Origin: Balneolales bacterium
GTDB taxonomy: Bacteria; Bacteroidota; Rhodothermia; Balneolales; Natronogracilivirgulaceae
DNA: 31,011 nucleotides
Reading direction: 5' to 3'
Assembly: GCA_007135895.1 (NCBI GenBank)
Contig: SLHZ01000287.1
Span: 1 to 31,011 of the forward strand
The notes beneath the pieces were generated by a model, which was not told where the DNA came from, searched no databases, and saw nothing but the letters and a program-made list of their open reading frames with translations. How positions within the stretch are numbered: the stretch's first letter is position 1; each line of letters starts with the position of its first letter. A program made the position numbers and the translations under genes. Positions 11,708 through 12,892 of the stretch are shown piece after piece.

Positions 11708-12892
11708 TCAACTTTGATGGACAACGACCGAGCAGGCTCCGCCTGTTCCATCGGATATGCCGGCACAGCCCCATTGCTTGCCGTGATGCCTCAGTGCGTG
11801 AATCAGAGTAACCAGGATTCTGGCGCCTGAGCAACCTGCCGGATTGCCGAGACTTAAAGCTCCACCGTGGATATTGAGCAGCCGGTTGTCGGAACCAAGC
11901 CCTTTTGAACAGGCAAGGGCACTTACGGCGAACGTTTCATTGATCTCTAAGAGATCCATATCCGAAACGGCTTTATCTGCATGCTGCAAGGCAAGGTTCA
12001 TGGCCTCTGCTGCAGCTGCGGCATCCCGGGCGGGAGTGTGAGCCGTAACGGCCTTGCTGATCAGACGAGTGGAGGCCTTGAAGCCGAGCTCTACTGCTTT
12101 TTCCCTGTTCATGAGCAAGAGTGCCGCGGCACCGTCCGCATGAGGCGCGCTGTTGGCCACGGTGACCGATCCCTCTTCCGAATACGCGGGAGGGTAGCGG
12201 AAAAGGATCTCCATGGCGGGCATGCCGGCGGCTTCATCCTTCGATATCAGATGTGCTTCGCCCTTTTTGTTTCGGTATTTCAGGCGTACGGTTTCCCTGG
12301 CAAAACAGTTTTTTTTTCGTGCCGTTTCAAACCGGCGGTGTGACTCCATCGTATAGATATCCTGTTCATGTCGGGAGATACCGGAATCAGCAGCGAAACG
12401 CTCTGCCAGTTCTCCTTGCTGATGCTTTCCGGTGGTATCCTGGAGGTTGTCAGCAACGATGCCGTCCAGCAGGGATGAGTGACCCAGGTCCAAACCCGTC
12501 CGCAAATCCCTGAGATAGTGTGGCACCCGGCTCATGCTTTCCATTCCACCGGCGATGATGATATCAGCCTGGTTCGTCTCGATGAGTTGCATGGCCAGGG
12601 TGACGGCCATCATGCCCGATGCCATGCCGTTGTTGATTGTGGTACACAAGGTGGCATTACTCAGGCCGGCTTTAAGTGCCGCCTGTCGCGCCGGGCATGG
12701 ACCGATACCCGCTGGCAGTGCATTGCCCATGATGACCTGATCAATCCGGTCCGGGTTCAGTTGGTTGTTCTTGAAGAGCGCTCCTATCACGACTGACCCC
12801 AGTTGTGGTGCCGTCATGGCTTTCAGTGCACCGCCCAGGGTTCCGGCGGGTGTTCGCAGCGCATCAATGGCAATAACCTTGTCGGACATCAT
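11708..12892 (-). CDS. Thiolase (AtoB/PhaA-like) homolog lacking the catalytic Cys/His/Cys, 394 aa
   Basis: RTPAG, QVIMGN, AGGMESMS, DGAAALLLM, EINETFA and NIHGGALSLG motifs identify the fold. The catalytic positions read Met (12623-12625), Asn (11843-11845) and Ser (11753-11755). Confidence 0.9.
   Translation of the reverse strand: MMSDKVIAIDALRTPAGTLGGALKAMTAPQLGSVVIGALFKNNQLNPDRIDQVIMGNALPAGIGPCPARQAALKAGLSNATLCTTINNGMASGMMAVTLAMQLIETNQADIIIAGGMESMSRVPHYLRDLRTGLDLGHSSLLDGIVADNLQDTTGKHQQGELAERFAADSGISRHEQDIYTMESHRRFETARKKNCFARETVRLKYRNKKGEAHLISKDEAAGMPAMEILFRYPPAYSEEGSVTVANSAPHADGAAALLLMNREKAVELGFKASTRLISKAVTAHTPARDAAAAAEAMNLALQHADKAVSDMDLLEINETFAVSALACSKGLGSDNRLLNIHGGALSLGNPAGCSGARILVTLIHALRHHGKQWGCAGISDGTGGACSVVVHQS

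What the first reader, a model, noticed from the sequence alone, without database searches (positions are those of the whole stretch)
11708..12892. Full-length pseudo-thiolase with all three catalytic residues substituted
Seen in sequence: TTINNGMASGM replaces TTINKVCxSGM (nucleophile Cys to Met). GGALSLGNPAGCSG replaces GGAIxLGHPxGxSG (His to Asn). GISDGTGGA replaces xLCIGGGxG (acid/base Cys to Ser). The NEAF motif is NETF. Established: the Zoogloea thiolase residues Cys89, His348 and Cys378 are required for thiolysis and Claisen condensation. Inference: the unbroken 394-aa frame suggests a retained non-thiolase role, such as an acyl-CoA sensor, a scaffold or regulatory subunit of an active thiolase, or new chemistry. 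It sits directly upstream of porU.
Basis: partly seen in the sequence, partly recalled or inferred. Interest (0 to 1): 0.66.

Follow-up and report, generated by a model that had tools for sequence, protein, structure and literature searches.

The report
Dead thiolase kept after pathway loss
In this soda-lake bacterium and its close relatives, the one copy of a standard metabolic enzyme (thiolase) lost its catalytic residues once the pathway feeding it disappeared, yet the full-length protein is still kept by selection, which points to a hidden second, non-enzymatic job.

Summary
Confirmed: 11708-12892 (minus strand) encodes an unbroken 394-aa thiolase fold with C89M, H348N, C378S (Zoogloea numbering) and 7 of 9 other pocket residues changed. 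It is not an extra paralog. It is the single syntenic T2-type thiolase of Balneolales, found in 212/221 genomes. The M/N/S triad is private to this species. Fifteen of 17 genomes of one clade, and independently one genome of another family, lost catalytic residues in different combinations, and all lack the high-scoring acyl-CoA dehydrogenases of their relatives. No copy has a stop or frameshift. dN/dS is 0.06-0.14 in dead relatives and 0.23 against a conspecific strain (12 changes). Active-site loops sped up 6.6-fold; helix-loop 31-51 did not. Best reading (0.6): a pseudoenzyme kept for a non-catalytic binding role; partner unknown. Acyl-CoA sensor, subunit of an active thiolase and HMG-CoA-synthase partner are disfavoured. 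Slow decay remains possible (0.22), especially for this long-branched copy. The scan found dead thiolases before only beside HMG-CoA synthase, a different case.

The parts
11708..12892 (-). Pseudo-thiolase ORF, 394 aa (P0001); single-copy ortholog of the Balneolales T2-type acetyl-CoA acetyltransferase
12623..12625 (-). Met90 in place of the nucleophile Cys89 (ATG)
11930..11941 (-). NETF (318-321) in place of NEAF; N318 is His in a conspecific strain
11843..11845 (-). Asn350 in place of His348 (GHP motif)
11753..11755 (-). Ser380 in place of the acid/base Cys378
12740..12802 (-). Residues 31-51 (C-terminal half of helix Nalpha1 and following loop): the segment that escaped relaxation; conserved at protein, not DNA, level; candidate binding surface
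7554..11516 (-). porU (T9SS sortase), downstream neighbour
   Evidence: NF033707
6386..7690 (-). porV (real start probably near 7504)
12998..13519 (-). Uncharacterised 173-aa predicted lipoprotein, upstream neighbour, 55-85% identical across the order
12897..12998 (.). About 100-bp palindromic dispersed repeat ending a few bases before the start codon

Best explanation
Shown: this is the in-place descendant of the order's single T2-type thiolase; it has lost the catalytic triad and most CoA-pocket residues, but the fold and reading frame are under purifying selection in a clade of soda-lake Balneolales. Inferred step 1: catalysis became dispensable when these lineages lost the short/branched acyl-CoA dehydrogenases and the stand-alone 3-hydroxybutyryl-CoA dehydrogenase that feed acetoacetyl- and 2-methylacetoacetyl-CoA (probably Ile/Leu/Lys/Trp catabolism). 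Inferred step 2: the gene survived because the ancestral enzyme also had a non-catalytic job. The folded cytoplasmic protein most likely acts as a binding surface or scaffold, using helix Nalpha1 and its loop (residues 31-51), away from the dead pocket. The partner is not identified.
For: Synteny and one copy per genome. 15/17 clade genomes plus G030 altered in at least one of C/N/H/C, 21/21 full-length outgroup genomes intact. G030 groups with its intact sister G036 in both gene and neighbour trees. All 18 lack acyl-CoA dehydrogenase hits at E<=1e-45, which 199/221 order genomes have, and lack stand-alone Hbd. No stop in any copy; neutral change of only 25% of residues leaves 2% of simulated genes stop-free. 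dN/dS 0.06-0.14 in C89G pairs, like porU (0.09-0.14); four within-species or near pairs pooled 25N/71S, p<1e-17; window vs conspecific strain 5N/7S, p 0.016-0.043. P0001 keeps 78/100 slow non-pocket sites, 36/69 slow pocket sites, 45/137 fast sites. Pocket loops 6.6x faster, segment 31-50 unchanged (0.92 vs 0.88); family-wise p 2.5e-4. Single genes are cleanly deleted from this operon elsewhere, including this one in G118, G196, G162.
Against: No partner, expression or protein evidence: the one RNA run laid did not cover the gene. The whole protein evolves about 3x faster than in the outgroup, and this copy's branch (1.5 changes per site) is 3-5x longer than most sister branches. It has the lowest codon-adaptation score of 14 window genes (0.646). 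The species-level dN/dS rests on 12 changes. Segment 31-50 did not gain constraint in absolute terms; my first reading said it did and one search corrected that. Genus g2 and G037 lack Hbd but keep an intact triad; G002, G004 and G189 lack the dehydrogenases but keep C/N/H/C. Only two independent origins. The surface position of Nalpha1 is from knowledge of the fold, not from coordinates.
Confidence: 0.6

Rival explanations
1. Slow decay of a useless gene: it is still transcribed inside a needed operon, so selection only removes stops (polarity on porU-porV) and misfolding changes; there is no second function.
For: Different residues lost in each lineage; 3x overall acceleration; very long branches for G000, G005, G030; retained sites are largely Gly/Pro/core; the gene is deleted together with porU in G118, G196, G162; lowest codon score in the window.
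Against: dN/dS in dead g11 copies equals that of porU over dS up to 4-6; none lost in 17 genomes though neighbours are cleanly deleted; a 190-330 bp gap to porU rules out translational coupling; a variable outer segment is selectively spared.
Confidence: 0.22
2. Residual or new Cys-independent chemistry (for example thioester decarboxylation or retro-aldol cleavage) using the oxyanion-hole pair at positions 316/348.
For: Position 348 changes only to Asn (at least 3 times) and 316 only to His or Asp, although other single-base changes are likelier; thiolase folds have been repurposed (Sal, Ltp2, TbSLP; PMC12329534).
Against: No new invariant catalytic residue; unlike MsTLP1, whose altered motifs are conserved among homologs (PMC3406046); N318 is polymorphic within the species; substrate-binding loops erode. 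Asn/His swaps can be structural.
Confidence: 0.09
3. CoA or acyl-CoA binding sensor or buffer.
For: R174, Q177, D219, E220, T244, N247, D253 and G254 around the loop domain are kept.
Against: Zr H156, M157, F235, S247, L249, M288 and I350 equivalents are Q158, Q159, Y237, A249, H251, D290 and A352; the cationic-loop Arg209 is variable; no regulator domain is fused or adjacent.
Confidence: 0.06
4. Regulatory or structural subunit of an active thiolase, or partner of HMG-CoA synthase/DUF35 as in archaea.
For: Genus g11 and G004 carry other thiolases; the window's genome may too, beyond the end of contig C48.
Against: G003, G005, G009, G013, G030 have no second thiolase; HMG-CoA synthase not found in 41/41 genomes, DUF35 not found in 5/5, DXR present in 5/5.
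Confidence: 0.03

Closest known systems
T2-type / biosynthetic acetoacetyl-CoA thiolase (Elizabethkingia 6bn2, Aspergillus 6aqp, human ACAT1/T2, Zoogloea 1dlu; TIGR01930)
   Same: Fold (TM 0.92-0.93), length, about 40% identity, scores above the TIGR01930 cut-off; intact orthologs in the order carry CxS, NEAF, GHP and CNG motifs.
   Different: CxS, GHP and CxG catalytic residues replaced; 7 of 9 other pocket-lining residues changed.
Mycobacterium smegmatis thiolase-like protein TLP1 (PMC3406046)
   Same: Thiolase fold without the catalytic residues; no thiolase activity (measured for TLP1, inferred here); function unknown.
   Different: TLP1 is an old SCP2-related paralog with an extra C-terminal barrel and conserved replacement motifs (YSCF, GGL, NGG). 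This protein is a recent single-copy ortholog with no extra domain and lineage-specific replacements.
Thiolase-fold aldolases Ltp2 and Sal, and T. brucei SLP (PMC12329534)
   Same: Cys-less thiolase fold.
   Different: They have a conserved YDHF/YDCY/YDCF catalytic motif and (Ltp2, Sal) a DUF35 partner; here the motif is NETF and variable, and no DUF35 was found.
Thiolase subunit of the archaeal thiolase/HMG-CoA synthase/DUF35 complex
   Same: Idea of a dead thiolase kept as a structural partner.
   Different: No HMG-CoA synthase in 41 genomes, MEP pathway present, different gene context.

Membership tests
Thiolase superfamily (fold) | Thiolase_N + Thiolase_C domains and thiolase fold | tested here: met
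   PF00108 7e-65, PF02803 2e-29; Foldseek TM 0.92-0.93
Active thiolase (EC 2.3.1.9/16) | Nucleophile Cys in CxS | tested here: not met
   Met90
Active thiolase (EC 2.3.1.9/16) | His in GHP | tested here: not met
   Asn350
Active thiolase (EC 2.3.1.9/16) | Acid/base Cys in CxG | tested here: not met
   Ser380
Active thiolase (EC 2.3.1.9/16) | Asn or His of NEAF/HEAF | tested here: met
   Asn318 kept (His in a conspecific strain); Ala is Thr
Active thiolase (EC 2.3.1.9/16) | Thiolysis or Claisen activity | not testable with these tools
   Needs enzyme assay
Pseudoenzyme | Catalytic residues lost with intact frame | tested here: met
Pseudoenzyme | Purifying selection on the protein after the loss | tested here: met
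   dN/dS 0.06-0.14 in C89G pairs; 0.23 (12 changes) for this species; non-random site pattern p 4e-12
Pseudoenzyme | Expressed, folded protein with a demonstrated non-catalytic role | not testable with these tools
   RNA contigs did not cover the gene; no partner known
TLP1 / SLP / Ltp2 / Sal thiolase-like proteins | Conserved YSCF, YDCF, YDHF or YDCY replacement motif; SCP2-thiolase ancestry | tested here: not met
   NETF; descends from the T2-type ortholog
Thiolase/HMGCS/DUF35 complex | HMG-CoA synthase and DUF35 genes in the genome | tested here: not met
   0/41 and 0/5 genomes

The most novel reading that the evidence does not exclude
The dead thiolase is a cytoplasmic accessory needed for PorU-dependent type IX cargo attachment in Balneolales: after catabolism was lost it was kept where porU remained (two origins) and deleted where porU was gone (genera g40, g49).
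Probability: 0.1. Interest if true: 0.8.

Novelty: new variant of a known kind. Interest (0 to 1): 0.52.

Why it matters
Known dead thiolases are old paralogs or subunits of the mevalonate complex. Here the only copy of a housekeeping thiolase is caught turning into a pseudoenzyme, twice, with every stage from intact to fully dead present among living relatives and a cultured strain (ANBcel1) available. That gives a direct way to expose a second job of a standard bacterial thiolase. It also shows that automatic annotation of these genes as acetyl-CoA acyltransferase misleads metabolic reconstructions of soda-lake Balneolales.

Tried and rejected
Search for other carriers of the M/N/S triad: only this species; the metagenome scan found nothing. 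'Gain' of a new conserved patch: not upheld in absolute rate against neighbour genes; reported as spared constraint. Overlapping antisense gene or DNA element behind the patch: synonymous sites are free and antisense frames are not conserved. Switch to anaerobiosis as the cause: heme-copper oxidase subunit I is kept in 39/41 genomes. CoA transferase as partner: only 8/41 genomes. HMGCS/DUF35 partner: absent. metB-like neighbour as partner: deleted here while the thiolase stays, and kept where the thiolase is deleted. Ancient thiolase-PorU link: no adjacency in 74 loci outside Balneolales; one of 7 class-level loci has porU-porV upstream instead. Pairwise ML dN/dS between genera is saturated and not used. 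Formal one-clade tree tests did not finish. RNA run X15 covered only the TPR gene, which says nothing about expression. Promoter scans were uninformative. No complex prediction was sent because no partner is claimed. Literature searches found no report of this clade's thiolase.

Full report
Observation. The ORF is on the minus strand (12892 to 11708), 394 aa, with no internal stop. It matches Thiolase_N and Thiolase_C and TIGR01930 above cut-off. The alignment to solved thiolases puts Met90, Asn350 and Ser380 on the three catalytic positions and NETF on NEAF. The predicted structure is a normal thiolase (pLDDT 83.6; TM 0.92-0.93). Of the nine other pocket-lining residues listed for the Zoogloea enzyme (PMC7337054), seven are changed: H156 to Q158, M157 to Q159, F235 to Y237, S247 to A249, L249 to H251, M288 to D290 and I350 to A352; L148 and F319 are kept (mapped by motif). 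The changes are real: Cys to Met needs three base changes, and a conspecific strain from other soda-lake samples has the same three residues.

What the gene is. The nearest proteins are from Balneolales. The gene is not a duplicate. It is the single ortholog in the conserved order TPR lipoprotein, metB-like gene, 173-aa lipoprotein, thiolase, porU, porV, dead M6-like protease. It was found in 212 of 221 genomes of the order; the 150 best listed are 74-100% identical to the Balneola vulgaris protein. The intact form carries T2-type fingerprints (EWFTTAP, CNG; inference). Adjacency to porU is a Balneolales arrangement: 4 of 6 Balneolales-like loci show it directly, none of 74 other loci do.

Who has lost the triad. 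All 21 full-length outgroup genomes have C/N/H/C. In a 17-genome clade of the window's family, 15 have lost one to three of these residues, each lineage in its own way (G, D or M at 89; H or D at 316; N at 348; S, A or G at 378), and only G002 and G004 are intact. G030, in another family, degenerated independently: it sits with its intact sister G036 in both trees. The M/N/S triad is therefore private to this species.

Why catalysis went. All 17 clade genomes and G030 lack acyl-CoA dehydrogenase matches at E<=1e-45, which 199 of 221 genomes have, and lack the stand-alone 290-aa 3-hydroxyacyl-CoA dehydrogenase. I infer loss of branched-chain amino acid, lysine and tryptophan catabolism; the substrate assignment rests on size and family only. 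Exceptions: g2 and G037 lack Hbd but keep the dehydrogenases and the triad; G002, G004 and G189 lack the dehydrogenases and keep the triad.

Why it is not simply a pseudogene. No copy has a stop or frameshift (two are cut by contig ends). A neutral simulation to 25% amino-acid change left 2% of genes stop-free. dN/dS between C89G orthologs is 0.06-0.14, equal to porU in the same pairs. The window against its conspecific strain gives 5 non-synonymous and 7 synonymous changes (0.23; p 0.016-0.043), and four close pairs pooled give 25/71 (p<1e-17). Changes in P0001 are not random: it keeps 78/100 slow non-pocket sites, 36/69 slow pocket sites and 45/137 fast sites. Single genes can leave this operon cleanly: the metB-like gene is gone from the window, porU from many Balneolaceae, and thiolase plus porU from G118, G196 and G162, which also lack the dehydrogenases. 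The 190-330 bp gap to porU excludes translational coupling.

Which part matters. Relative to neighbour genes, the protein evolves 2.9 times faster in the clade than outside, the active-site and CoA loops 6.6 times faster, and residues 31-50 not faster at all. Among sites that vary freely in the outgroup, those at 34-51 are the most spared (family-wise p 2.5e-4); P0001 keeps 12 of 14. The conservation is at protein level. This is spared constraint, not newly gained constraint.

Mechanism and rivals. Best reading (0.6): a folded dead enzyme kept for a non-catalytic binding role that the ancestral thiolase already had; partner unknown. Slow decay inside a needed operon (0.22) is the main rival and fits this copy best, given its long branch and low codon score. 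New chemistry (0.09) has one hint, the restriction of positions 316/348 to Asn/His/Asp, but no invariant new residue. A CoA sensor (0.06) conflicts with erosion of the CoA loops. A subunit of an active thiolase or of HMG-CoA synthase (0.03) fails because five near-complete genomes have no second thiolase, HMG-CoA synthase was not found in 41 genomes, and DXR is present. The link to porU (kept with porU twice; deleted without it in g40 and g49) rests on too few independent events and may be co-deletion of neighbours.

Comparison and novelty. It works like a pseudoenzyme and is not a member of the active thiolases, nor of TLP1, SLP, Ltp2 or Sal, whose replacement motifs are conserved (PMC3406046; PMC12329534). 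I found no paper on it. Earlier notes of this scan describe dead thiolases only in the HMG-CoA synthase operon. Verdict: real, a new variant of a known kind, interest 0.52.

Noticed in passing
window 12897-12998: About 100-bp palindromic dispersed repeat (hairpin z -5.4) with 47 hits in 37 contigs of the genome, sometimes in tandem; related copies occur in G003, G004, G010 and G018 loci, in G010 also just before the thiolase. REP/MITE-like; assemblies break at it.
   Followed up: partly
window 13519-13544: The metB/cystathionine gamma-lyase-like gene that lies between the TPR gene and the lipoprotein in nearly all relatives is cleanly deleted here; no ortholog found in the 67% complete genome.
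   Followed up: partly
L085, L086, L088, L091, L093: porU is precisely deleted from the operon in many genomes of family f5 (g30 0/21, g32 0/25) while porV and, in those tested, sprA remain: a type IX system without its sortase.
   Followed up: partly
window 3160-6351: A second dead enzyme in the same gene run: T9SS-dependent M6-like inactivated metalloprotease (NF052323).
   Followed up: no
window 12998-13519: 173-aa predicted lipoprotein with no Pfam or NCBIfam match, 55-85% identical across the order; present in both pseudo-thiolase lineages, absent from the f5 loci examined.
   Followed up: partly
G000:C48 (outside the window): PcaIJ-like CoA transferase pair plus aminotransferase; the contig ends before the position where G004 and G014 have a second thiolase, so this genome may hide an active one.
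   Followed up: partly
G000:C325 (outside the window): A 510-530 aa acyl-CoA dehydrogenase-like gene is kept across the order, even where all others are lost; role unknown.
   Followed up: no
window 6386-11516 vs L070: Against a conspecific strain, synonymous divergence is 0.09-0.10 in porU and porV but 0.024 in the thiolase, suggesting a recombined tract.
   Followed up: no
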